From a virus (lineage: Duplodnaviria > Heunggongvirae > Uroviricota > Caudoviricetes), in the IMG/VR virus record IMGVR_UViG_2541047787_000008: a stretch of 14,246 nucleotides of DNA; one strand, given 5' to 3'. The notes under the pieces were generated by a model, which made no database searches, was not told the DNA's origin, and was given only the letters and a program-made list of their open reading frames with translations. Below, piece by piece: positions 1-12,298 of this stretch (position 1 is its first letter; every line of letters begins with the position of its first letter). The position numbers and the translations under genes are program-made.

Positions 1-183
1 GCAAAGGACTGTCTCCTTCTGCCGGTTGAAATCACCCACAGCCCACTCAGCAAAGCTGTGGGTTACAATTTCCCTGTCACCTGGTACATTAACTGCATAG
101 CAATACTCCATCTTCGCTTTTCCACCCGGTACAGGAAGCGCAATCAGTTGCGAGCGACGGTAGTGTGTTGTTAAACTGTTCAT
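1..183 (-). CDS. Hypothetical phage early-right protein, N-terminal 61 codons only (continues beyond window start)
   Basis: Hand translation of the minus strand from ATG at 183..181 gives 61 sense codons ([21 protein letters not shown]...) with no stop to position 1. Its ATG overlaps the stop of the upstream CII-like gene in an ATGA arrangement. Not in the ORF track because it has no stop in-window. Confidence 0.4.
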
Positions 184-743
184 GCGTTAGTTTCTCCACA
201 GTCACGACACGCCACGGCGCCCGGAGCTGCACACTCGCGGGCGTCATTACTTTCTGAAATGCAAAAGATTTTGTAGACCAGTGCTGCATGCTCCTGCAGC
301 TTCGAAATTGAGAGATACAGCTCGTCGTTAATTGCTGTCTTCTCATGCGGTTCCACTACACCGTCTTCGATTGCTGAACGAATCTGTCTGGAATAACTGC
401 CAATCTGTTCAATGACTTCCAGCAGGCGCTGGTTGATATCGGCGTTGTCCACATCCTCGACGTCAGGAAGAGACACAAAGACGCCATTTGCAGACTGCGC
501 CACAGCATCAGCAATGAAGTGAGTGCCACCAGCACGCTGTAAAACCATTGCCCATCCCAGCGGGAAAATCTGATCGCCATCTGCACGAAGGCGGTTGAAT
601 AAAGCGTTTTCTGTTACATCGAGCCAGTCAGCCGCTTCAGCGTAACCCCCCGGCAACGCCGCGATAGTTTTTCTGACAGCTTTCACGTACCACTCAGGCT
701 GTTTTTCTATTTTCCAGTGATGCTTACCCACGATTAGCCTCAT
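180..743 (-). CDS. Phage CII-like regulatory protein (YdaT / CP76-type), tentative
   Basis: 187-aa ORF immediately downstream of the Cro-like gene on the same strand, the position occupied by cII-like genes in lambdoid and Rac-like prophages. Family call is from recalled similarity, not a search. Confidence 0.5.
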
Positions 744-774
744 CGTTCTGTGGTTAAAAATTGAAAGTGTTCTG

Positions 775-975
775 CTAATCTTTCGGATAGATATCCGGTC
801 TTAAGTCAGATTTCGTAATTGCACCTGACGTGCATTGCTCAAGTTTTTTAGCCAGCACAAAACTGGCTTTTTTATAGCCATTGAAAACCAGCCGTAAGTA
901 GCCAGGTGTTGAGCCAACTTTTCCGGCCAACTCGCCCTGCTGTTCTTTGGTTAAAGAGTCCCAATACGCTTTCAT
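775..975 (-). CDS. Cro-like HTH regulator (YdaS-like), about 66 aa
   Basis: The ORF-track frame 775..1278 is open further upstream, but the plausible start is the ATG at 975..973 with GGAGGT about 10 nt upstream on the minus strand. Product MKAYWDSLTKEQQGELAGKVGSTPGYLRLVFNGYKKAS... has a helix-turn-helix-like core. It is divergent from the repressor gene. Confidence 0.65.
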   Translation of the reverse strand: MKAYWDSLTKEQQGELAGKVGSTPGYLRLVFNGYKKASFVLAKKLEQCTSGAITKSDLRPDIYPKD

Positions 976-1065
976 ACAATATGTACCTCCGGTATACATA
1001 TTACATGATTGAAATGAACCTTCAAGATACTTGTACCTTAACGGTACAAGGGTTTTAATTTCGTT
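976..1065. promoter_or_regulatory. Divergent promoter/operator region between the cro-like and cI-like genes (oR-like)
   Basis: Perfect inverted repeat cttgtacc-ttaac-ggtacaag at 1030..1050 and a second TGTACC-containing imperfect dyad at about 981..999. A candidate -35 TTGTAC (1031..1036) and -10 TTTAAT (1054..1059) would start the repressor transcript at or near its ATG at 1066. Confidence 0.6.
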
Positions 1066-1740
1066 ATGAAAACAATCCATGACATCCGGCGGTCTAACGC
1101 CAGAAAACTGAGAGATGGTGTTGGCGGGAATTCTTCCTTTGCCACTATGATTGATCGCGAGCCAACCCAGACCAGCAGGTTTATGGGAGATGGTGCTACT
1201 AAAAATATCGGTGACAGCATGGCACGACACATCGAAAAATGTTTCGACCTGCCTGTCGGATGGCTCGATCAAGAACACCAGACAACGAACATCACAAAAA
1301 AACCTGATGTTTCAATCACTAATAAACAAATCACATTAGTCCCTGTCATATCATGGGTACAGGCCGGAGCATGGAAAGAAGTTGGATATTCTGAGGTTGA
1401 TTTGAGCACAGCAGAAACGTATCCCTGCCCTGTACCCTGTGGGGAAATGACTTATATCTTGCGGGTGATAGGTGATTCAATGATTGATGAGTACCGCCCG
1501 GGAGACATGATTTTTGTCGATCCTGAAGTACCTGCCTGCCACGGTGACGACGTTATTGCATTGATGCACGATACAGGTGAAACCACCTTCAAAAGGTTGA
1601 TAGAAGATGGGACACAGCGTTATCTCAAAGCGTTAAACCCAAACTGGCCTGAGCCTTACATTAAGATCAACGGTAATTGCTCTATAATTGGTACAGTGAT
1701 TTTCTCAGGAAAACCAAGAAGATACAAAATCAAAGCCTAA
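1066..1740 (+). CDS. CI-like phage repressor with C-terminal S24 (LexA-type) autopeptidase domain
   Basis: 224-aa ORF. C-terminal region has the Ser/Lys dyad context (VIGDSM ... TFKRL) and a candidate Ala-Gly autocleavage site (VQAGAW). No Shine-Dalgarno before the ATG, consistent with a leaderless transcript as for lambda cI. Confidence 0.8.
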   Translation: MKTIHDIRRSNARKLRDGVGGNSSFATMIDREPTQTSRFMGDGATKNIGDSMARHIEKCFDLPVGWLDQEHQTTNITKKPDVSITNKQITLVPVISWVQAGAWKEVGYSEVDLSTAETYPCPVPCGEMTYILRVIGDSMIDEYRPGDMIFVDPEVPACHGDDVIALMHDTGETTFKRLIEDGTQRYLKALNPNWPEPYIKINGNCSIIGTVIFSGKPRRYKIKA

Positions 1741-1752
1741 TCAATGTTTATG

Positions 1753-1776
1753 AACCTGCTTCGGCAGGTTTTTTTA
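1753..1776 (+). terminator. Intrinsic terminator downstream of the repressor gene
   Basis: Stem aacctgc / gcaggtt with loop ttcg, followed by a run of T residues, 13 nt after the repressor stop codon. Confidence 0.7.
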
Positions 1777-1779
1777 TAC

Positions 1780-1812
1780 TTGACAATGTACCCTTGAGAT
1801 ACATAATGTACC
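1780..1812 (+). promoter_or_regulatory. pL-like early-left promoter with overlapping operator repeats
   Basis: TTGACA at 1780..1785, 16-nt spacer, CATAAT at 1802..1807. The 8-bp direct repeat aatgtacc occurs at 1785..1792 and 1805..1812, sharing the TGTACC half-site of the cro/cI operators. Confidence 0.65.
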
Positions 1813-1933
1813 TAAGCGAAACAACGAACAGGCAGGACGCCCACGAAGTAGCCGCCTGGGGCATATGAAGTCCAGGATGATTCGTTGAGTCATGTTGTGC
1901 CACTAGGCACTCATGTTAAAGCAGGTGTATGAA

Positions 1934-2209
1934 ATGAAAGTCCAGATTTTAAACAATAACTGTGAAGTCGTTTGGTCATACGACATAGCCGCCCCTGTAG
2001 ATCAGAGCGGCGATAGCTGGACCAATGGGAAACATCAGATTATGGCTGGAGTTGTGTTCTCTTTACGCCGTGCTTTGGAACAGGCTGAAGTATTTCCATC
2101 AGACCCTGAATGGAAATGGCCTTTTTCTATTTGTCCAAATTCGGAGAGCACATTTCAGAAAATTGGTCAGAAAGTCGCACTCGAAGAGCATCAGCCAACT
2201 GTTTCCTGA
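1934..2209 (+). CDS. Hypothetical small protein, first ORF downstream of the pL-like promoter (uncertain; overlaps the next feature)
   Basis: In-frame ATG at 1934 with AGGTG 6 nt upstream; the track ORF begins at 1913. Overlaps the convergent minus-strand ORF by 83 nt, so at most one is likely real over the shared stretch. Confidence 0.3.
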   Translation: MKVQILNNNCEVVWSYDIAAPVDQSGDSWTNGKHQIMAGVVFSLRRALEQAEVFPSDPEWKWPFSICPNSESTFQKIGQKVALEEHQPTVS

Positions 2210-2372
2210 TTTTTTCAGGTAACTCGTCGGCATCGCAGAAACAACAACGCTCGATCATGTTGAAAGCCGATTCGTAGAACTGTTTTTGCTGAGTGTCGCT
2301 GAGACAGGAAAAGAGCGACGTTACGATGATTTTATTAATTGCATTATCAAGTTCTTTTTCATCAAAAGTCAT
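2127..2372 (-). CDS. Hypothetical acidic 81-aa protein (uncertain; convergent with the previous feature)
   Basis: ATG at 2372..2370 preceded on the minus strand by AAGGA with a 7-nt spacer. Protein-like composition; no family recognised. Confidence 0.35.
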   Translation of the reverse strand: MTFDEKELDNAINKIIVTSLFSCLSDTQQKQFYESAFNMIERCCFCDADELPEKIRKQLADALRVRLSDQFSEMCSPNLDK

Positions 2373-2469
2373 TTGATTTTCCTTTTATGTATACGGGCTT
2401 AAAAGGATACCACCGAGCCTGAAGTGGTGAAAAGACAGGCACATAACAGCTAAGTATTTTCAACCTGAG

Positions 2470-2800
2470 AGAATCCTTAGCGTTGTGGTGAATGCGGCTC
2501 AGCGCACGCGGGTTAAGGTTGAGGCTGACAGTCGACCTTCTGTGGATACCCACCCGCCTGGTGTGCAACCTTCGCCAGGCACCGGGAGGCACCCGGCACC
2601 ACAACTTTATGCTGTGTGTAGTCCTGGCGGTACCAGCTTCTACCCTTGCTTCCGGCTGGTACCGCTCTTTTTACAAAACAGAGAAGAGCATCACCGGACG
2701 ACGGGCTCATAACCCAATCCACCGGGGCGGCTGCCACCGCAGGTGTTCTTCTCTGTTTTGTGGAGAAACCAACCGACCTTGCAGGGTCGATATGATGAGG
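2470..2800 (+). other. GC-rich, highly structured non-coding island (candidate ncRNA or terminator/antitermination element)
   Basis: About 63% GC in a hand-counted 60-nt stretch, against roughly 30-45% in flanking sequence. Several perfect stems; ORF-track ORFs here on both strands translate to low-complexity Arg/Pro/Gly-rich strings. The next real start looks like ATG 2810, preceded by GAGGAG. Confidence 0.4.
2627..2672 (+). terminator. Intrinsic-terminator-like hairpin inside the GC-rich island
   Basis: Perfect 11-bp stem gcggtaccagc (2627..2637) / gctggtaccgc (2655..2665) with a 17-nt loop, followed by TCTTTTT at 2666..2672. Confidence 0.55.
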
Positions 2801-2809
2801 AGCAGCAAA

Positions 2810-3172
2810 ATGGCTAGCGAACGCAGTACCAACGTGCAGGAATTTATCGGGGAGCTGGACGGCGGCGTATTTGAAACCAAAATCGGCGCAGTTCTCAGTG
2901 AAGTCGCTTCCGGTGTGATGAACACGAAAACCAAAGGTAAGGTCTCGCTCAACCTGGAAATCGAACCGTTTGATGAGAACCGTGTGAAAATAAAACACAA
3001 ACTCTCATATGTTCGTCCGACTAACCGCGGGAAAATTTCCGAAGAAGACACCACCGAAACGCCGATGTATGTCAATCGCGGTGGTCGCCTGACTATTCTG
3101 CAGGAAGACCAGGGACAATTACTGACTCTTGCCGGTGAACCTGACGGAAAACTCCGCGCAGCAGGTCATTAA
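2810..3172 (+). CDS. Hypothetical phage early protein, 120 aa (possibly YfdP-like)
   Basis: ATG at 2810 with GAGGAG 7 nt upstream; the 226-aa track ORF 2492..3172 is the same frame extended through the GC-rich region. YfdP assignment rests only on size and neighbourhood. Confidence 0.7.
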   Translation: MASERSTNVQEFIGELDGGVFETKIGAVLSEVASGVMNTKTKGKVSLNLEIEPFDENRVKIKHKLSYVRPTNRGKISEEDTTETPMYVNRGGRLTILQEDQGQLLTLAGEPDGKLRAAGH

Positions 3173-3237
3173 TATCGTTCTTAATTAACTGATTATTTAT
3201 CTCATCACTGAATATCTTTATATAGTGAGGACTTATT

Positions 3238-4062
3238 ATGTCTCAGAACTTAGACGCAACCGCAATTAATCAAATCCATGCCCTTATTTCTGCTCAGGGT
3301 GTTAATGAAATTATCAGTAAGATTGGTGCCGACGCAGTGGCATTACCTGAAAATTTCCGCATTCATGATCTGGAAAAATTTAATTTAAATCGCTTCCGTT
3401 TCCGTGGTGCGCTTTCCACTGCCAGCATCGATGACTTTACCCGTTATTCTAAAGATCTTGCGGATGAAGGCACCCGCTGCTTTATCGATGCCGATAATAT
3501 GCGTGCCGTCAGTGTGCTTAACCTGGGTACTATTGATGAGCCTGGTCACGCAGATAACACCGCCACTCTCAAACTGAAAAAGACAGCACCGTTCTCTGCT
3601 CTGTTGTCTGTTAACGGCGAGCGTAACTCCCAGAAGTCACTGGCAGAATGGATTGAAGACTGGGCCGACTACCTTGTGGGCTTTGATGCTAATGGTGATG
3701 CCATTCAGGCAACAAAAGCGGCTGCGGCAGTCCGTAAAATCACGATTGAAGCAAACCAGACCGCTGATTTTGAAGACAATGACTTCAGCGGCAAACGCTC
3801 CCTGATGGAGTCTGTCGAAGCGAAGACCAAAGATATTATGCCAGTGACATTTGAATTTAAATGCGTTCCGTTTGAAGGCCTGAAAGAACGTCCGTTTAAA
3901 TTACGCCTCAGCATTATCACTGGCGATCGTCCTGTACTGGTTCTGCGCATTATTCAGCTGGAAGCAGTGCAGGAAGAAATGGCTAACGAATTTCGTGATC
4001 TGCTTGTTGAGAAATTCAAGGACAGCAAAGTAGAAACCTTTATTGGTACTTTTACCGCCTGA
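3238..4062 (+). CDS. Phage protein of the YfdQ / DUF2303 type, 274 aa
   Basis: Clean ORF with GAGGA 8 nt upstream of the ATG. Length and position next to an HD hydrolase match the yfdP-yfdQ-yfdR module of the K-12 CPS-53/KplE1 prophage. Family call is from memory, not a search. Confidence 0.7.
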
Positions 4063-4189
4063 TTTCATTACTGCAAATGCCCCTGCGGGGGCATTTATGG
4101 AAACGTAATTGACTCAATAATCGCCGGATGGTGAGGGCTTTCTTTTACCAGAATTCAGCGCGGTGCAGCGCATATACGTGGAGAACAAA

Positions 4190-4714
4190 ATGTCATTTAT
4201 TAAAACTTTTTCCGGGAAGCATTTTTATTATGACAGGATAAATAAAGACGACATCGTTATTAACGATATCGCGGTTTCTCTTTCAAATATCTGTCGCTTT
4301 GCAGGACATCTTTCACATTTCTACAGCGTCGCCCAACATGCGGTGCTTTGCAGCCAACTGGTACCGCAGGAATTTGCTTTTGAAGCGTTAATGCATGATG
4401 CAACAGAAGCGTATTGCCAGGACATCCCGGCGCCACTGAAACGCCTTCTTCCTGACTATAAACGGATGGAAGAAAAAATAGACGCCGTAATCCGTGAGAA
4501 ATACGGGTTACCCCCGGTTATGAGTACGCCCGTGAAATATGCCGATCTCATCATGCTGGCAACCGAACGCCGCGATCTCGGGCTTGATGATGGCTCTTTC
4601 TGGCCCGTACTGGAAGGTATCCCGGCAACAGAGATGTTCAAAGTTATTCCACTGTCGCCAGGCCATACCTATGGGATGTTTATGGAACGCTTTAAAGAGT
4701 TAACTGAGTCGTAA
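4190..4714 (+). CDS. HD-domain phosphohydrolase (YfdR-like 5'-deoxynucleotidase family)
   Basis: HD-type metal-binding motifs (FAGHLSHFYSVAQH ... LMHDATEAY). Preferred start ATG 4190 with GGAGAA 4 nt upstream; the track ORF starts at 4163. Confidence 0.8.
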   Translation: MSFIKTFSGKHFYYDRINKDDIVINDIAVSLSNICRFAGHLSHFYSVAQHAVLCSQLVPQEFAFEALMHDATEAYCQDIPAPLKRLLPDYKRMEEKIDAVIREKYGLPPVMSTPVKYADLIMLATERRDLGLDDGSFWPVLEGIPATEMFKVIPLSPGHTYGMFMERFKELTES

Positions 4715-4822
4715 AAATCAGCACGTACGAATTCAAACTCTGCCATAAAAGAACATATAAGTAATTTATTAACATATAGATATAGGTTATATTACAAATT
4801 GAAAAATTATTGGAGAGCAACA

Positions 4823-5689
4823 ATGAATCAAAATCCATTCTCATTCTATGACTTTCTTGGATATTTAATACCAGGTGGTTTTTTTATCCTATTAATGTAT
4901 TTCTGTGGTTTGACATTCGATCTAGATATTGTTATTGACTTAAGTGAATTGCTCAGAGGTCAAAGTCAAATCTTTGGCATTTTGAACTACGCTTCAATAG
5001 TTATTATATCTTATATAGCTGGACATTTTATTTCTATCACGTCAGCATTTTTTATCGAAAAATACATGAATAAAGAATTAGGATATCCTTCCAAATATCT
5101 ATTTAAAAAATTGATAGATACCTCAGAAAGCATTTGTAGCCCATCATGCGATGAGAGAAGCGCTGATAAAAAAACAAAAATAAAGAATCGCATAATCAAA
5201 TGCGTATTATGTCCAATAATACTATGGGATTTTATAACACAAAAACTATGTTATTCTCAATCTCTACCATTTCATTTAGCTAATACAACATGGTTAATGA
5301 TCAAAGAAGGTTATGAGAAAAAGTTCATAACAAATCGCCAATTATTACAAGATAAAAACGGACTTGATGATGATCTCTTCAGATTGGCATATCATTATGT
5401 TTATGAGTTTTCAAAACAACATCAAACAAAAATTCAAAACTATGTTGCATTATATGGTTTTTGCAGAAACATATGTTTAATCTTTATAATTTCATTTTGG
5501 GTATCAGTTCCAACCTTTATTTATCGATTATGTACTCATAGTGATTATCTTTATAGTTTACTTTCAATAATGCTTAGCTTTTTCTTCGTCTATGTTTTCT
5601 ATGTTGGTTTTGTTAAATTTTATAGAAGATATACTTTAGAAGTATTAATGGCATTTGCTGTACTTCAAAGTAACGACACTATTCGTTAA
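4823..5689 (+). CDS. AT-rich hypothetical membrane protein in the slot between the early-left genes and xis
   Basis: Preferred start ATG 4823 with GGAG 7 nt upstream (track start 4799). About 28-35% GC in two hand-counted 60-nt stretches. Two hydrophobic helices at the N-terminus and two at the C-terminus flank a hydrophilic Cys-containing middle (CSPSC ... CVLCP). No family recognised. Confidence 0.75.
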   Translation: MNQNPFSFYDFLGYLIPGGFFILLMYFCGLTFDLDIVIDLSELLRGQSQIFGILNYASIVIISYIAGHFISITSAFFIEKYMNKELGYPSKYLFKKLIDTSESICSPSCDERSADKKTKIKNRIIKCVLCPIILWDFITQKLCYSQSLPFHLANTTWLMIKEGYEKKFITNRQLLQDKNGLDDDLFRLAYHYVYEFSKQHQTKIQNYVALYGFCRNICLIFIISFWVSVPTFIYRLCTHSDYLYSLLSIMLSFFFVYVFYVGFVKFYRRYTLEVLMAFAVLQSNDTIR

Positions 5690-5730
5690 TAATGTTGCTC
5701 CCGTGTGCAGACGGGATAATGGAGAAACGT

Positions 5731-5937
5731 ATGCTGAACCTCGATTGTGTTCCTATCTCAACTTATTGCAAAGAAACTGGCGAAACTCCTGAAGCAATAA
5801 ACAAACGTGTACAGCGCGGTGTTTGGCGTGAAGGTGTTCAGGTTTTAAAGGTTGAAGGCGTTAAGGAGAGGTGGATTGATCTTAGTGAGGTTGCAAAATG
5901 GGCCAGACAAAACTGCTCAAACTACCGCGCGGCGTAA
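5731..5937 (+). CDS. xis: Excisionase-like protein (Xis), about 68 aa
   Basis: Small basic ORF immediately upstream of int and overlapping it by about 40 nt, as in lambda. Preferred start ATG 5731 with GGAGAAA upstream; the track ORF starts at 5692. Confidence 0.65.
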   Translation: MLNLDCVPISTYCKETGETPEAINKRVQRGVWREGVQVLKVEGVKERWIDLSEVAKWARQNCSNYRAA

Positions 5938-7073
5938 CAATCAGGAAACACCGCCAGGGAGAAACGATCAATATAACTTTCACCTACAAAGGAGTTAGAT
6001 GTCGTGAGCCGCTTTCCAATCTGGAAGTAACACCAAAGAACATTAAATACGCCGAGCGTACACTCGGCGAAATCCATAATAAGATCGAAAGGGGAACATT
6101 CATTTATGCAGAATATTTTCCCCGTTCTGCTCGTTTGAAAATTTTTGGTAATGCTGCTGCAGGCAAAACGGTAAAGATGTACCTGGACGAATATCTTGAA
6201 ATCTGCGAAACAAGAAAACTTTCACCCTCTACGATTGGTGGCTATAAAAAATGCCGTAGTGCGTTAGCCTCACTTCACATTTGCCCTGCAAGTGAATTAA
6301 CACCAGCAACCCTGAAAGCGTGGATTCAAAGCCAGAAAACAACCTTAAAAACCATTCGCAACCAGTTATCTTTCCTACGGTCAGCACTTGATGAAGCCGT
6401 GACCGATGGGGTACTTCAAATTAACCCCGTATCGTTAGTAACAGCTTCGCGCTACCAAAGTGATAAGTCAGAAGCAGAAAGCAGCTATGTGGTTGATCCG
6501 CTATCACCAGCAGAAGTTGATGCATTACTAGCAGCAGCCGGAAACAAACAATGGGAAAATCTGTTCCGGTTCGCCATACATACAGGCCTGCGTAGTTCTG
6601 AATTATGTGCCCTACGATGGCATGATATCGACTTTGTTGGAAAAACAGCCCATGTTCAGAGCGCAAGTGTTGTCGGAGTTATCAAAGGAACAAAGACAAA
6701 AGCCGGTACCCGTAAAGTTGAACTGACTGAAGAAGCAATGTTGGCGTTGATAAACCAGAAGCCATTTACATTCATGAAGGATGCTACTGTCTTTGAAGAT
6801 CCAAAGACCAATAAACCCTGGGCAAGTGCTGATGCAATTAGGAAAAAAGCATGGGTGCCAACATTGCGAAAAGCAGGTATTCGTTACAGAAACCCATATC
6901 AAACCAGGCATACATTCGCCACCAGCCATATCAGCCGTGGTGCGAACCTGTTCTGGCTTGCAGGCCAGATGGGCCATAAGGGACCAGAAATGCTATTTCG
7001 TCACTATGGCAGTTACCTTGCTGCATATGACGGACATACCGCTAAAAATACTAATGATACAAAACAGGCTTGA
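5898..7073 (+). CDS. int: Phage integrase, tyrosine recombinase family
   Basis: 391-aa ORF with GAGG 7 nt upstream of the ATG. Catalytic-domain motifs are visible: HTGLRSSELCALRW (Arg box), QTRHTFATSH, MGHKG, and the terminal FRHYGSY with the candidate catalytic Tyr. Confidence 0.9.
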   Translation: MGQTKLLKLPRGVTIRKHRQGETINITFTYKGVRCREPLSNLEVTPKNIKYAERTLGEIHNKIERGTFIYAEYFPRSARLKIFGNAAAGKTVKMYLDEYLEICETRKLSPSTIGGYKKCRSALASLHICPASELTPATLKAWIQSQKTTLKTIRNQLSFLRSALDEAVTDGVLQINPVSLVTASRYQSDKSEAESSYVVDPLSPAEVDALLAAAGNKQWENLFRFAIHTGLRSSELCALRWHDIDFVGKTAHVQSASVVGVIKGTKTKAGTRKVELTEEAMLALINQKPFTFMKDATVFEDPKTNKPWASADAIRKKAWVPTLRKAGIRYRNPYQTRHTFATSHISRGANLFWLAGQMGHKGPEMLFRHYGSYLAAYDGHTAKNTNDTKQA

Positions 7074-7266
7074 TGCTGCCCGAACAAATAGCCACTGAAA
7101 CCTGATAAAAAGTTATTTGTGATGTGGTTATGTTCGTCATATCCACATCATACATACTTAAACATAAGGCACTTTTTACCTTGCAAAAATTCGAACCAAG
7201 CATTTATGTTATAGGTGAACTTGGTACTCAGGCAGCTGTCCTAGTACTAGGAACACGCGGGAAATC

Positions 7267-7296
7267 TTGGAGCCAGTACGTAGATTATGGTAAAAT
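7267..7296 (+). promoter_or_regulatory. Candidate promoter for the downstream two-gene cassette
   Basis: TTGGAG at 7267..7272, 18-nt spacer, extended -10 TGgTAAAAT at 7288..7296. A 12-bp perfect palindrome cctagtactagg lies upstream at 7240..7251. Confidence 0.45.
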
Positions 7297-7368
7297 CCCG
7301 CGCCCCGTTCTGCGGGGAGCAATAAATGCCTCAAAAGGATACATTGGGGGGACTGAAAGGAGGTCTTT

Positions 7369-7617
7369 ATGTCAGAACTAGTCATGAAGATGTTTGGGCT
7401 GAATGATTTGGTCAAAGGCGGACAAGCCATGGCCGATCGTTTGAACAAATCTGGTGTTAAAAACATCAAGGTCGTAGGGCGTGGTGCAGTTATTGTAGAC
7501 CCATCTACTGACCCAGAAAAAATCACTCAGCTTAGGAAAGCAGCTAGAAAATTCGTCGAGCAGGATGCAAAAGCTGTTGCAGCCGCTAAAGCTAACTCAA
7601 TGGACAATGACGACTAA
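7369..7617 (+). CDS. Hypothetical small soluble protein (82 aa), first gene of the int-proximal cassette
   Basis: Strong AAGGAGG at 7357..7363, 5 nt before the ATG. Charged, Ala/Lys-rich C-terminal half. No family recognised. Confidence 0.75.
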   Translation: MSELVMKMFGLNDLVKGGQAMADRLNKSGVKNIKVVGRGAVIVDPSTDPEKITQLRKAARKFVEQDAKAVAAAKANSMDNDD

Positions 7618-7620
7618 CAA

Positions 7621-8439
7621 ATGTTTGCATTGCTGATCATTCCACTTTTAGTAAGTGGATCCTTACTGGTTACATCGCCCCATAACATCAAATTATTCTA
7701 TCGACTCCACCGTTACGACGGCCAGCTTCTCTATATGAAGGTGGCCACGTACGGTGTGTACTCGTTCATTGTTGCAGTCGTGCTGGCGTATGCAACCAAG
7801 TACTTTATACCAAGCCTTACACTGGTCACATGGGTATCACATCTTATTGATGGTAGTGCAGACCCTAAAGAAAACAGGATAACATCATGGCTCATCCTGC
7901 TATCAGTGGCGACTTGTGGAGTTGCTTTTATTTGGTTGCAGATATGCAAATTTCGTATGTTTGTGGCAGCCAAAACTATTAGTTCTGCATCCAATAATGC
8001 AATTTCTATCAATTTCGCAAAGCAACTAATCAGGCTTAATGAGTTGGAAAAACTGTTGTCTGATGGCTCACTTGGTCAGCTATTCTTTGATTCAGCGACT
8101 ACAAACAGACCGGTACTGATAAGCCTGAAATGCCGCAAAGTATATGTCGGAACAGTTAACATGATTAGTGAGCCAAACGAAAAACAAGGCCCTAACCTTG
8201 AAATTTCTATTAGCCCAATCATATCTGGTTACAGGGACAAGGACACACTAAGGGTCCTGTTTTCAAATGATTACAACGATCTTGATGGAGTTGATACCAG
8301 TATCATATTTCCATTAAGTGAGGTTTCGCATGCTTCTTGGTTCAATATGGATATACATGAAAAAGTAGACAATAACCGAGAGAAGAAACCAGAAACAAAC
8401 CGCAAGAAAAAACGTAAATATGGCAGGACTACGAATTGA
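7621..8439 (+). CDS. Hypothetical membrane-anchored protein (272 aa), second gene of the cassette
   Basis: ATG 3 nt after the stop of the 82-aa gene (TAA caa ATG), suggesting coupling. Three hydrophobic helices in the first ~110 residues, a soluble C-terminal domain, and a Lys/Arg-rich tail (REKKPETNRKKKRKYGRTTN). No family recognised. Confidence 0.75.
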   Translation: MFALLIIPLLVSGSLLVTSPHNIKLFYRLHRYDGQLLYMKVATYGVYSFIVAVVLAYATKYFIPSLTLVTWVSHLIDGSADPKENRITSWLILLSVATCGVAFIWLQICKFRMFVAAKTISSASNNAISINFAKQLIRLNELEKLLSDGSLGQLFFDSATTNRPVLISLKCRKVYVGTVNMISEPNEKQGPNLEISISPIISGYRDKDTLRVLFSNDYNDLDGVDTSIIFPLSEVSHASWFNMDIHEKVDNNREKKPETNRKKKRKYGRTTN

Positions 8440-8513
8440 TAGTAAAATATCCGCAAAAGAGCCGTAAGAACCAACTTTAAATTTTATTCGTTATAAATCA
8501 ACGCATTGCAAAT

Positions 8514-8542
8514 ATTCGGACACGGGTTCAACTCCCGCCAGC
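8514..8542 (+). other. Partial copy of the ssrA (tmRNA) 3' end: attachment-site core repeat
   Basis: attcggacACgggttcaactcccgccagc matches the E. coli tmRNA 3' end (as recalled: ...TTCGGACGCGGGTTCAACTCCCGCCAGCTCCACCA) with one mismatch, but lacks the terminal TCCACCA and the upstream tmRNA body. Followed by the 14-bp palindrome ccaatcatgattgg at 8542..8555. Confidence 0.6.
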
Positions 8543-8673
8543 CAATCATGATTGGACGGTATAAGGACAACACCAATAAAAACAGTAAGTTAGCAGTCTC
8601 AGCAGGACACCGACCAGACGGTGAAGAGACATAAAAGGATACGCAAAGGAGCCGCGGCTCCTGGTGACATGAA

Positions 8674-8695
8674 AGCCCACAGATGTGGGCTTTTT
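8674..8695. terminator. Terminator hairpin between the att region and the autotransporter 3' end
   Basis: Stem gcccac / gtgggc (8675..8690) followed by TTTTT at 8691..8695 on the plus strand. On the minus strand the same hairpin is followed by TTTCAT, just downstream of the autotransporter stop at 8705. Confidence 0.6.
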
Positions 8696-8704
8696 CGTTG
8701 ATGG

Positions 8705-11700
8705 TCAGAACGACCAGTTCACACCAGCTACCCCGTTCCACGGGGATTCCACACCGGCACCATGGCTATACCCCACCCCAAGATGCCCGCTTAACGTACT
8801 GCTGAATGAGGCTTTAATACCTGCCTGGTATATTCCACGTCTGCCCGACAAATCATTGACGAAATTACCGTCACTATTCACTTTCACCCGGTTATCATCG
8901 ACAAATTCTTTGCGCACAGCCGCCTTCAGCCACGGCTCAACTTCCATACCGTTCCCCAGACGCATGTTGTAACTCAGCGTTGCACCCAGTTCACGATATA
9001 AACTGCGGGTATCGACTGATTTCGATTCCATGCCATTGGATAAATGATATTCAGGGTTATCAGCGGTGAACCCCCGTTAACGATGCATACGGCGTCAGGT
9101 TCCAGTTACCATCGGTAAATCGCATCCCGGTTTCAATGTGACCGCCCAGCCCGTAGCTGCGATAACTGCCGTTGGCGGCTCCACCGCTGCCAACCGTGGA
9201 GTCGCGAGCTTCGGTACCTGCTAATACCAATAAATTACCGCCATTTTCCAGCAACATATTGGTCGCTAAATTGCCGGAAATGGAAAAAGTGCCGTACTGG
9301 TGAGTACCGCTGATTTCAATACCGTTAGCCGTGCTCGTCTGGAGAGCGGCACCGCTGTTCTGGACGATATCTGTCGCTTTGCCATTATCGTTAACTGTCA
9401 GCGTACCGCCTTCATTGATCTTTGTTTTTATTGCCTCTCCGTTAGCTGAAACTGTTTGTATTCCGCCGTCGTTAATCGTTGTCTCATTCGCCACCCCCTC
9501 GACGATTTGTTCGCCGCCGGTGAGCGTCGTGCCTGTCGCAGTGGCTTTTGTTTTGACGATCTCCCGTCCGCCCGTATTGACCTGTGTTTTGTCAGAAGAG
9601 GTGTCTGACTCCACGGTTAACACGCCGCCATTTGCCAGCAGGATATTGTTCGCCGCACCCTGCTCGATGCTGAACGCGACGCCATCCGCGCGTGTTCCTG
9701 TGACCCGCGTCGCCCTGGTGGTTGCAACCAAAGCGCCCTGGCTACTCTGCTGTATCCCCGTTGCGCTGCCTTTCTCCCGCACATCGAGTGTGCCGCCGTC
9801 ATTAAGCACCGAGTTTTCAGCCAGACCGCCCTCATTAACTACCTGTGAACACCCATTAATAATGGAACCTTCCGCTATCCCGTTTGCCATAATTTGTTGT
9901 AGGCCAGAGACGATATCGGTATTGATCGCCTTACCATAATTCTGAACGGTTTGTGTGCCGCCATTGATGTGCGTTTTGTCAGTTGACCCACCATCAACAA
10001 TTTGTTCACCACTTTCAATATTTGCCTCAGTGGCTAAACCATATACCGTTTGCTTGCCACCTTTGATATTTGCTTTATCAGAAGTGGCACTGGCATATAT
10101 TGTTTGGGTGCCAGCACTATTAAGTACAGTGCCAACATCTTTTCCATAAACATCCATTTTGCCGTTGGCATTAATAATCGTATCAACTGCCCGGGAACCA
10201 GTGACGACTGTTAATGAGCCAGCGTTTTCCAGCACTACATTTTTAGCTTCTGAATTCCTGATGTAGAAAGCATCACCATAACTGTTGGTTCCTTCGATAA
10301 GGGTTCCGGAAGTTGTGGAAGCAATTAATGCGCCGCCGGATTGTTGCTCAACATGCTTAGCCTCACCACCGTCCTGAACCTCCAGAACGCCACCATTATT
10401 AAGTCTGGTGGTATCTGTTTTAGCCTCCTTCTGGACAATCAGCTTACCGCCAGCATCAACGGTAGTATTTTTCGCCGAGGTTTTAGCCACTACCGTCAGT
10501 TCGCCGGTATTTTCCAGCACAACATAATTAGCCTCCCCTCCGGTAATAGTGAAGTGAGAGAGCTTGTTGTATCCTTCAATATCAGTCCCTGCGCCCGTGT
10601 TGGCAACTAAAGCACTGCCCGTCTCCTGGTTAACCCCATGTGCAATACCGCCGGTATAGACAATCAGCGAGCCTCCGGCGCTAATATTGCTGCCAATTGC
10701 CGTACCATCTTTCTCAACAACTTGCTGGCTCCCGGAGGATATAATTGTTGTGTCAGCTTTCCCACCGCTTTTGATATTTTGCGTTCCGCTGTTGATATTG
10801 GTGCCTGTGGCTATGCCATAATTATTAAGATTCTGTGTGCCACCATTAATTATGGTATTTGTCGCGTTTCCTGCAACATCCATAACCCCGCCATTATCTA
10901 TTCGGGTCGCATCAGCTTTAGCATTCGTTAAAACTGACATTGTTCCTTTATCTTTAATAATCGTCTTGTTTGCGGAATGAGATACTTCTAAATGGCCTCC
11001 ATTTTCCAGCAACACATTGTCTTCCACTTTATTGTGGATGGAGAATGCACCTTCACTATTCGTACCGCTCACCGTCGTACCGTTAGTGTTTGTTTTTAAA
11101 ATTGCACCATCGTGCTGGGTAACATTTGTTGCCGTACCACCACTAACATCAAGCACGCCACCGGAATAAACTTCAATAACATCCGAGGTGCTGGTGTTAT
11201 CAACAATTTGCGTGCCACCAGAATAGATCTGCGTAATTTTTGCCGTTGACTTACTATTCAGAGACTGAGTTCCGCCTTCAATCGTCGTGTCCAGCGCACG
11301 GCTCTCATATACTCTTTGCTCACCGCCATTTTTAATGGTTGTTGTTTCTACTGTGCTCTGTTCAACATACTGTCGACCACCATTTATGGTTGTGTTCGTT
11401 GCCAGACTTCCTTGTACTACGTCCTGAGAGCCAGACTTATTTATCGTTGTACCATCAGCATGCCCTTGAACTTTTACTATCTGGCTACCACCATCAATGA
11501 GTATTCCATTCGCACTCCCTCCCTCTACGCGTGAAGCACCGCCCTTAATTGTCGTTCCATTGCTGATACCCCCTTTATAAACGTCCTGATTGCCACTCTC
11601 GATTGTCGTACCTGTGGAAATACCCCCGTCATGAATTGACTGTCTGCCACCGTTAATGGTTGTATTATTAGCCTGCCCCACAAAATTGTTATGACTTCCT

Positions 11701-11969
11701 ATATCTTGATATCCACCAGATTCAATAAGACTTCCATTAGATACCCCGCCATGAACATTCTGCTGGTCATGGTTGATAATATGAGTGTTATTTGTTGTAC
11801 CTCGTTCATCCACTTTTTGGTTGCCATCTACAGTCTCATCGTTTACCACACCAATAACATCAGGAGTGAAGGCCGCCATACCGGGCGGGGCATATATCAA
11901 GGCAGATATCAATAAGGAAAGTACTGAGCGGCGACAATAATGGGGACTGGTCCTGTTCATAAATTTCAT
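8705..11969 (-). pseudogene. AIDA-I-type autotransporter adhesin, disrupted by a frameshift near the passenger/translocator junction
   Basis: The 1009-aa track ORF 9060..12089 carries a signal peptide (MKFMNRTSPHYCRRSVLSLLISALIYAPPGMAA) and passenger repeats; the track ORF 8705..9031 in another frame ends in the autotransporter C-terminal motif ...GVNWSF. The two frames join across a C5 run (plus strand 9071..9075). Start chosen at the signal-peptide Met (11969 or 11960), not the track start. Confidence 0.75.
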
Positions 11970-12298
11970 CCTCTGAAAAGTGAATACTGAGTAGCGTTTA
12001 AGCGACCTTAGCTCTGCTGCAACATCAGCCCACAGGCACCAGACCAGGGGATTCATCCTGAAGAGACAGCGCAAGTGTATTGTGTTCACCGCTCATCAAA
12101 GACATCATGATGAAATGATGATATTCCACATAAGAAAGAAGCATTTTTTAAACGCAGTGCGCTGAAGTATGGTTGGATAAAAAAGTCAATCTATTCAGGG
12201 AATACGGGGGTATTCTTTTCTTTCGACAATCAGGTCGTCGGCAAAATAAAATGATTTACATAATCGTTTCTGATGAATATCTTCTGCTCACATAAAAA

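What the first reader, a model, noticed from the sequence alone, without database searches (positions are those of the whole stretch)
8514..8555. Truncated ssrA 3'-end copy with an adjacent 14-bp palindrome marks an att junction about 1.4 kb beyond int
Seen: a 29-nt match (one mismatch) to the tmRNA 3' end with no upstream tmRNA body and no terminal TCCACCA; the perfect palindrome ccaatcatgattgg directly follows. Established: ssrA is a frequent integration site in E. coli, and integrated elements are flanked by a duplicated 3' segment of the target gene. Inference: this is an attachment junction, probably a composite or tandem island boundary, and the two-gene cassette lies inside the mobile element rather than in the core chromosome.
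Basis: partly seen in the sequence, partly recalled or inferred. Interest (0 to 1): 0.5.

Follow-up and report, generated by a model that had tools for sequence, protein, structure and literature searches.

The report
Prophage attR junction at ssrA
This is the ordinary right-hand attachment scar (attR) of a lambda-like prophage inserted in the E. coli tmRNA gene, carrying a 5-base deletion in the leftover gene tail that has already been published.

Summary
Window 8515-8542 matches the ssrA (tmRNA) 3' end with one mismatch, and no tmRNA body is present. It is the integrase-proximal attR junction of a lambdoid prophage. That prophage's integrase is 92% identical to that of phage phiNP, which integrates at a mapped 25-bp ssrA core. 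Everything to the right is the normal chromosomal ssrA trailer, its terminator and ypjA, exactly as at an empty site. So this is a simple end of the element, not a tandem or composite boundary, although some relatives do have a second island there.

The "missing TCCACCA" is a 5-bp deletion (CTCCA). The CCA end survives as the first three bases of the palindrome. The palindrome is native ssrA trailer, found in attB, attL, attR and in a free phage's attP.

The deletion removes U357, the G.U wobble base of tmRNA. It occurs in at least 178 of 5,426 complete E. coli genomes, next to several unrelated elements. Once (strain WB61) it sits in the only ssrA at an empty site. This tail variant, and its inactivation of trans-translation, are already published (PMC10107115 Table 1, citing Williams 2003).

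The two-gene cassette does lie inside the prophage. Interest is low.

The parts
5692..5937 (+). Excisionase (xis), 81 aa, overlapping the start of int
   Evidence: phrog_2917 excisionase, E=8e-45. Same position as the annotated xis in phages phiNP and LLS.
5898..7073 (+). Tyrosine integrase, 391 aa, reading towards attR
   Evidence: Pfam Arm-DNA-bind_2, Phage_integrase and SAM-like domains; phrog_1 integrase. It is 92% identical to Citrobacter phage phiNP integrase and 85% to phage LLS integrase.
7369..7617 (+). Cargo gene 1 (82 aa) in the int-att slot, function unknown
   Evidence: phrog_35771, unknown function. No Pfam or PADLOC hit. Annotated as hypothetical in strains 4588, HS13-1 and TA8571.
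7621..8439 (+). Cargo gene 2 (272 aa) in the int-att slot, function unknown
   Evidence: phrog_3630, unknown function. No Pfam or PADLOC hit. Unrelated to the 271-aa gene in the same slot of phage LLS.
8440..8514 (+). Phage P arm of attR: phage-specific DNA next to the core
   Evidence: Identical in HS13-1, 4588 and TA8571 attR, and different from ssrA upstream sequence. Arm-type Int sites are expected here but were not tested.
8515..8541 (+). Displaced ssrA 3' fragment: T arm (aCGGG 8522-8526, loop TTCAACT 8527-8533, CCCGC 8534-8538) plus CAG of the acceptor 3' strand. Bases 8525-8544 are what remains of phiNP's 25-bp core.
   Evidence: The phiNP attP/attB identity is GGTTCAACTCCCGCCAGCTCCACCA (PMC6456863). 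The P-arm-specific A8522 shows that strand exchange lies to its right.
8541..8542 (.). Site of the 5-bp deletion (CTCCA = ssrA C356-A360, including the wobble U357). Its placement is ambiguous by 1 nt.
   Evidence: Alignments A1 and A2. The same allele is listed as CGCCAGC-----CA in PMC10107115 Table 1.
8542..8555 (.). Perfect palindrome CCAATCATGATTGG = ssrA CCA end plus the first 11 nt of the native trailer
   Evidence: It is present in attB, attL, attR and in LLS attP.
8545..8696 (+). Chromosomal ssrA 3' trailer ending in an intrinsic terminator hairpin (AAAGCCCAC-AGAT-GTGGGCTTT, 8673-8694, then TT)
   Evidence: Co-linear with the sequence after ssrA at the empty NCTC9064 site, apart from a few SNPs such as CAGtAAG. 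The hairpin appears in both the MFE and centroid folds. The simple terminator scan did not list it.
8705..12089 (-). Split or shortened ypjA autotransporter gene (ORFs 8705-9031 and 9060-12089): conserved chromosomal flank, outside the element
   Evidence: It is 99.9% identical to the CV839-06 flank, where it is annotated as a beta-barrel fragment plus a ypjA pseudogene.

Best explanation
Window 8440-8544 is the attR junction of a lambdoid prophage. The window holds that prophage's immunity-to-int end at 1-8542. It integrated by tyrosine-recombinase site-specific recombination into the 3' end of ssrA.

The phage attP carries its own copy of the ssrA T arm, acceptor tail, trailer and a terminator. 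After integration the functional gene, about 45 kb to the left in relatives, ends in phage-supplied sequence. The original chromosomal tail is displaced to attR, next to xis-int and a two-gene cargo slot.

Strand exchange most likely occurs in or just after the T loop, at the left edge of the 25-bp identity mapped for phiNP. This step is inferred.

The displaced tail is not under selection and carries a known 5-bp deletion that removes U357 of the G3.U357 wobble pair. Precise excision would therefore be expected to move the deletion into ssrA and inactivate tmRNA, as documented for CP4-57 and CP4So. This step is also inferred, and it is supported by the natural empty-site strain WB61.
For: Shown:
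- The fragment is unique and non-random, and there is no tmRNA body.
- Homology breakpoints lie at 8511-8543.
- Strain 4588 has ssrA, then a lambdoid prophage, then xis-int, then the same two cargo genes, then this junction, then ypjA.
- The empty site of NCTC9064 joins ssrA to the identical right flank.
- int has Arm-binding and catalytic domains. It is 92% identical to phiNP Int, whose attP/attB core is experimentally the 25-bp ssrA 3' end (PMC6456863).
- Free phage LLS carries the tail, palindrome, trailer and terminator in its attP.
- All P-arm-private mismatches lie at or left of T-stem base 3.

For the direction of transfer:
- The window and the P2-like lysogens CV839-06, ETEC1731 and ETEC1747 share a 99.9% identical right flank. 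It includes a private SNP that never occurs with an intact tail.
- WB61 has the deletion in its only ssrA at an empty site, with acceptor pairs 2-3 broken.
- DTU-1 shows the analogous CP4-57 product, ssrA delT357.
- PMC10107115 lists this allele and reports loss of trans-translation.
Against: The window itself contains neither the intact ssrA nor attL, so the far end of the element is inferred from relatives.

The exact crossover position for this integrase family has not been mapped to the nucleotide. The deletion lies inside phiNP's 25-bp identity and only 1-2 bp beyond a canonical 21-bp core, so it might impair excision rather than be transferred by it.

The same deletion also occurs on several different right-flank haplotypes. 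A simple 'inherited with the chromosomal arm' history does not fully explain that.
Confidence: 0.9

Rival explanations
1. The fragment is an internal boundary of a tandem or composite array of ssrA islands. A second element would then begin to its right.
For: In TA8571 and about nine other genomes, homology to the window stops exactly at CGCCAGC. In TA8571 an intact tail is followed by a second integrase gene.
Against: In this window the sequence after the fragment is the chromosomal trailer, terminator and ypjA, co-linear with the empty site of NCTC9064. There is no second ssrA fragment or second integrase in the window.
Confidence: 0.04
2. The 5-bp deletion belongs to the phage (P) side of the crossover. 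Excision would then restore a normal ssrA, and the deletion would travel with the phage.
For: The deletion is found with the same P arm on two different right flanks (window and HS13-1). It is also found on several flank haplotypes.
Against: phiNP's attP/attB identity ends at CCA, leaving only 3 bp to the right of the deletion for strand exchange. The same P arm also occurs with an intact tail in 4588, PCP06173 and TA8571. Different phages share the deletion together with a private flank SNP. WB61 has the deletion in ssrA with no phage present.
Confidence: 0.08
3. The deletion cripples attR, for example by damaging the B' core-type Int site. The prophage would then be locked in and could not excise precisely.
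For: The deletion lies within the 25-bp identity of phiNP and starts 1-2 bp beyond CCCGCCA.
Against: The deletion occurs next to at least four unrelated elements and once in an empty site. That pattern is most easily produced by repeated excision and re-integration at sites carrying the deletion. PMC10107115 lists the allele as an excision-induced ssrA mutation.
Confidence: 0.12
4. The match is a chance resemblance or part of some other conserved repeat, such as a tRNA-like or REP element.
For: None beyond the short length of the match.
Against: No match in any of 200 shuffles. The fragment is co-linear with ssrA in all att alignments. Homology breakpoints coincide with it.
Confidence: 0.01

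Closest known systems
Citrobacter phage phiNP (and Escherichia phage LLS), ssrA-integrating temperate phages
   Same: The integrase is 92% (phiNP) and 85% (LLS) identical. The xis-int-cargo-attP layout is the same, and so is the core at the ssrA 3' end: phiNP's mapped 25 bp GGTTCAACTCCCGCCAGCTCCACCA. LLS attP carries the same palindrome, trailer module and a terminator.
   Different: The cargo genes in the int-att slot differ: an AAA ATPase in phiNP, an unrelated 271-aa protein in LLS. The P arm sequence differs. The window shows the integrated attR with a deleted tail rather than a free attP.
Eco48X (E. coli RS218) / Ecoc48X (CFT073) ssrA prophages of Williams 2003, as tabulated in PMC10107115
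   Same: These are ssrA-integrated prophages about 48 kb long. Eco48X has the identical attR tail CGCCAGC-----CA. UTI89-type B2 strains show this allele with a homologous integrase and early region.
   Different: The window's P arm (TTCGGACaCGGG) and cargo genes differ from the UTI89 type (TTtGGACtCGGG, with a three-gene cargo on the opposite strand). The right flank here is ypjA rather than glaH. That UTI89's prophage equals Eco48X is my inference and was not tested.
CP4-57 (E. coli K-12) and CP4So (Shewanella oneidensis) 'phage regulatory switch' on tmRNA
   Same: The attR tail is defective at U357. Excision transfers the lesion to ssrA and inactivates tmRNA, switching ribosome rescue to ArfA (PMC10107115, PMC5148205). 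K-12 attR and the DTU-1 excision product are visible in the genomes.
   Different: Those are P4-like cryptic elements with a 1-nt lesion. Here the element is a lambdoid prophage with a phiNP-type integrase and a 5-nt lesion. Regulated excision and its physiological effect are untested for this element.

Membership tests
attR junction of a prophage integrated in a tRNA/tmRNA gene | A duplicated 3' segment of the target gene sits at the element-chromosome junction | tested here: met
   28 nt of the ssrA 3' end at 8515-8542, plus the CCA.
attR junction of a prophage integrated in a tRNA/tmRNA gene | Homology to empty-site genomes starts at the repeat, and homology to element-bearing genomes ends there | tested here: met
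   Breakpoints at window 8511 and 8542/8543. The empty site of NCTC9064 was aligned.
attR junction of a prophage integrated in a tRNA/tmRNA gene | An intact target gene with the partner repeat (attL) lies at the other end of the element in the same genome | not testable with these tools
   The window does not reach that far. The feature is met in relative 4588, where ssrA lies about 45 kb to the left.
attR junction of a prophage integrated in a tRNA/tmRNA gene | A tyrosine integrase (with excisionase) lies adjacent, and close homologues use this site | tested here: met
   Pfam and PHROG hits. 92% identity to phiNP Int. The phiNP site was mapped experimentally (PMC6456863).
Prophage-excision switch that inactivates tmRNA (CP4-57/CP4So type) | The attR tail carries a lesion that removes the wobble U357 | tested here: met
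   The 5-bp deletion CTCCA covers U357. The allele is listed in PMC10107115 Table 1.
Prophage-excision switch that inactivates tmRNA (CP4-57/CP4So type) | The crossover lies 5' of the lesion, so excision moves the lesion into ssrA | tested here: inconclusive
   Supported by the P-arm mismatches, the shared flank haplotype under different phages and the WB61 empty site. No excision junction of this element was observed.
Prophage-excision switch that inactivates tmRNA (CP4-57/CP4So type) | The lesion abolishes tmRNA function | not testable with these tools
   Rfam shows acceptor pairs 2-3 and the CCA register broken in WB61. [quoted passage not shown]
Prophage-excision switch that inactivates tmRNA (CP4-57/CP4So type) | Excision is regulated by physiological conditions | not testable with these tools
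   Needs experiments.
Tandem/composite island array at ssrA | A second element (integrase, further att repeat) lies directly beyond the junction | tested here: not met
   There is a single ssrA fragment and the flank equals the empty-site flank. The feature is met in relative TA8571.

The most novel reading that the evidence does not exclude
The identical 5-bp tail deletion sits beside at least four unrelated element families. These are two lambdoid P-arm types, a P2-like prophage and a P4-like satellite. It also occurs on several flank haplotypes, once in a live empty-site ssrA (WB61), and, according to the literature table, in Salmonella.

This might reflect recurrent origin driven by a mutational hotspot, or by selection. 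Loss of U357 in the displaced tail makes curing cost the host its tmRNA. That would act as a passive 'addiction' favouring whichever element occupies ssrA, and favouring re-lysogenisation of cured cells.

My data do not exclude this and do not establish it. A single origin spread by recombination remains possible.
Probability: 0.2. Interest if true: 0.4.

Novelty: already known. Interest (0 to 1): 0.15.

Why it matters
Mainly for annotation. The junction fixes the right boundary of the prophage at 8541-8544. It places the two unknown genes at 7369-8439 in the variable int-att cargo slot of a mobile element. It shows that ypjA and everything beyond it is chromosomal.

It also predicts that curing this prophage would probably leave a tmRNA-defective host dependent on ArfA. 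That matters for anyone engineering or curing such strains. The phenomenon itself is already documented for ssrA prophages.

Tried and rejected
- ARAGORN and Rfam at gathering threshold on the window found nothing. The fragment is too short to be called.
- An exact scan of 185,579 species-representative genomes for the deleted junction with the palindrome gave 0 hits. A 22-mer without the E. coli flank gave only one hit, in an alphaproteobacterial MAG, which I did not follow. With one genome per species these scans say little about E. coli strains.
- Williams 2002 and 2003 and Wang 2009 are not held in the library. Their content is cited only second-hand, through PMC10107115.
- The simple terminator scan missed the ssrA terminator hairpin, probably because the A/T extension of the stem uses up the T run. 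Folding recovered it.
- I considered the palindrome as the recombination core and rejected it. phiNP's identity ends at CCA and does not include the rest of the palindrome.
- I considered slipped-strand deletion. Only 1 nt of microhomology flanks the deletion, so this explanation is weak.
- PADLOC and Pfam gave nothing for the two cargo genes.

Full report
**Observation.** Window 8515-8542 reads TTCGGACaCGGGTTCAACTCCCGCCAGC. This is the ssrA 3' end: the T arm plus the start of the acceptor 3' strand. It has one mismatch, A8522 against G, at the first base of the T stem. The match is unique in the window, and 0 of 200 dinucleotide-preserving shuffles gave a match. ARAGORN and Rfam find no tmRNA gene anywhere in the window, so it is an isolated tail. 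The palindrome CCAATCATGATTGG lies at 8542-8555.

**Context.** A 3-kb query around the site matched nearly all of 5,426 complete E. coli genomes, but in two halves. One group matches up to window 8542/8543. The other starts at window 8511.

- In strain 4588 the order is smpB, intact ssrA, a lambdoid prophage, then this junction, then ypjA. The prophage reads tail, head, lysis, Q, replication, cI-like ymfK, yfdPQR, xis-int and two hypothetical genes.
- In NCTC9064 ssrA abuts the ypjA flank directly, so that site is empty.
- Window 1-8542 is therefore the immunity-to-int end of such a prophage, and 8543 onward is chromosome.
- The integrase (5898-7073) has Arm-DNA-binding and catalytic domains. 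An excisionase (5692-5937) overlaps its start.
- As in lambda, int reads towards its att site. Here a two-gene cargo (7369-7617 and 7621-8439) lies in between.

**Base-level anatomy.** Alignments A1 and A2 show that attB, and attL and attR of 4588, read CGCCAGCTCCACCAATCATGATTGG. The window reads CGCCAG-----CCAATCATGATTGG.

- The 'missing TCCACCA' is therefore a 5-bp deletion (CTCCA, or equivalently TCCAC). The CCA terminus survives at 8542-8544.
- The palindrome is that CCA plus the first 11 nt of the native ssrA trailer.
- It occurs after intact ssrA at the empty site, in attL, in attR, at K-12's CP4-57 attR (annotated psaA), and in the attP of free phage LLS.
- The homology between attL and attR in 4588 is not 29 nt but about 150 bp. 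It covers the tail, the trailer and the approach to a terminator.
- In LLS the attP carries all of this plus its own terminator. These phages therefore bring a complete replacement 3' end for the ssrA transcription unit.
- In the window the chromosomal trailer ends in the hairpin AAAGCCCAC-AGAT-GTGGGCTTT at 8673-8694.

**Mechanism.** The integrase is 92% identical to that of Citrobacter phage phiNP and 85% to that of phage LLS.

- For phiNP the attP/attB identity was mapped experimentally to 25 bp, GGTTCAACTCCCGCCAGCTCCACCA. Integration was shown to reconstitute ssrA (PMC6456863).
- Across four P-arm variants (window, UTI89, LLS, phiNP), the private mismatches all lie at or to the left of T-stem base 3. 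The uninterrupted block common to all is exactly those 25 bp.
- In 4588, attR keeps the phage-type A while attL has the bacterial G.
- Strand exchange therefore lies to the right of 8522-8524. By the usual logic for tRNA-gene integrases it is in or next to the T loop (8527-8533). That last step is inference.

**The 5-bp deletion.** It removes C356-A360, including U357 of the G3.U357 wobble pair. A junction-specific 44-nt probe that cannot seed on the intact form found it once each in 178 of 5,426 genomes. This is a lower bound. It occurs in these contexts:

| Context | Example(s) |
|---|---|
| UTI89-type lambdoid prophage, about 118 genomes | UTI89 |
| The window's own P arm, four genomes, on a different right flank | HS13-1 |
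| P2-like prophage | CV839-06, ETEC1731, ETEC1747 |
| P4-like satellite | strain 190 |
| Divergent remnant elsewhere in the chromosome | PSUO2 |
| Full-length ssrA at an empty site, the only such genome | WB61 |

The P2-like lysogens share the window's right flank at 99.9% identity. That flank includes a private SNP which never occurs with an intact tail. This argues that the deletion travels with the chromosomal arm. It would pass into ssrA on excision and be healed by the next phage to integrate. In WB61, Rfam shows acceptor pairs 2-3 and the CCA register broken, scoring 270 against 296 bits. ARAGORN has to shift the 5' end to call the gene. DTU-1, a laboratory strain, shows the analogous product for K-12: CP4-57 is gone and ssrA reads CGCCAGC-CCACCA.

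**Comparison with what is known.** This is already described.

- PMC10107115 shows that CP4-57 excision deletes T357, inactivates tmRNA and switches ribosome rescue to ArfA/RF2.
- Its Table 1, which draws on Williams 2003, lists the very allele CGCCAGC-----CA. The listed elements are E. coli RS218 Eco48X, EDL933 OI-108 and Salmonella LT2 Stm27X.
- Shewanella CP4So is a further precedent (PMC5148205).

**The tandem idea.** In TA8571, the same prophage end is followed by an intact tail and a second integrase gene, which is a true tandem array. In about nine other genomes, homology to the window likewise stops at CGCCAGC. In this window the empty-site flank follows directly, and there is no second ssrA fragment. 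Here it is a simple terminal attR.

**The cassette.** The two genes lie between int and attR and accompany this prophage end in 17 complete genomes. The slot is variable:

- phiNP has an AAA ATPase there.
- LLS has an unrelated 271-aa gene.
- UTI89 has three other genes.
- The P2-like prophage of CV839-06 has an anti-phage dCTP deaminase at the equivalent place.

The window's two proteins match only PHROGs of unknown function.

**Unresolved.** It is not clear why the identical 5-bp deletion appears on several right-flank haplotypes and, according to the literature, in Salmonella. Only 1 nt of microhomology flanks it. Single origin followed by recombination, and recurrent origin, both remain open.

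**Verdict.** The att-junction reading is correct, and so is placing the cassette inside the element. The tandem reading is not supported here. The palindrome and the truncation were misread. The feature is ordinary and already documented, so interest is low.

Noticed in passing
L006 (E. coli WB61, NZ_CP020025.1) 5665-6023: WB61 is the only one of 5,426 complete genomes with the 5-bp tail deletion in a full-length ssrA at an empty site. It is probably a natural tmRNA-defective strain left by prophage excision. Assembly error and a second ssrA copy were not excluded.
   Followed up: partly
window 7369-8439; L007 9974-11844; L011 5171-6958; L012 5218-6033; L004 7065-8798: The slot between int and att holds different cargo in each related element: two unknown genes here, three genes including a STAS-like one in UTI89, an AAA ATPase in phiNP, an unrelated 271-aa gene in LLS, and an anti-phage dCTP deaminase in a P2-like prophage. 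It looks like a moron or defence hotspot. The window's genes have no PADLOC or Pfam hit.
   Followed up: partly
window 4799-5689 (+): This 296-aa ORF upstream of xis matches phrog_12528 (unknown function) strongly. It has a weak PADLOC hit to Csx27, a type VI-B CRISPR-associated membrane protein (E=1.4e-5).
   Followed up: no
window 8705-12089 (-): ypjA is split and shortened here (108-aa and 1009-aa ORFs). The 3-kb query spans 4.3 kb in strain 4588, so about 1.3 kb of the repetitive passenger domain is missing. CV839-06 and strain 190 have the same split form, annotated as a pseudogene.
   Followed up: partly
L013 (E. coli TA8571) 7040-8468: The same prophage end is followed by an intact ssrA tail, a different trailer and terminator, and a second integrase gene. 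This is a true tandem array at ssrA in relatives.
   Followed up: partly
L015 (E. coli DTU-1, NZ_CP026612.1) 2216-2577: This laboratory strain has a 362-nt ssrA reading CGCCAGC-CCACCA directly next to ypjA. That is the documented CP4-57 excision product (ssrA delT357), fixed in a sequenced genome.
   Followed up: yes
L010 (E. coli PSUO2) about 5005-5140: A divergent copy of the T-arm half, the 5-bp-deleted tail, the palindrome and the trailer module lies at another chromosomal location. It sits near the vat island and next to a truncated Arm-binding integrase fragment.
   Followed up: no
L012 (phage LLS) 6054-6250; L003 8200-8400: Phage-borne attP and attL arms carry about 150 bp homologous to the ssrA tail and chromosomal trailer, then their own terminator. 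This is far more than the 25-bp core reported for phiNP, and it provides substrate for homologous exchange between attL and attR.
   Followed up: partly
L014 1523-1544: The single exact hit of CGGGTTCAACTCCCGCCAGCCA among species-representative genomes is in an uncultured alphaproteobacterial MAG. It may be a chance match or an unrelated tmRNA or tRNA tail.
   Followed up: no
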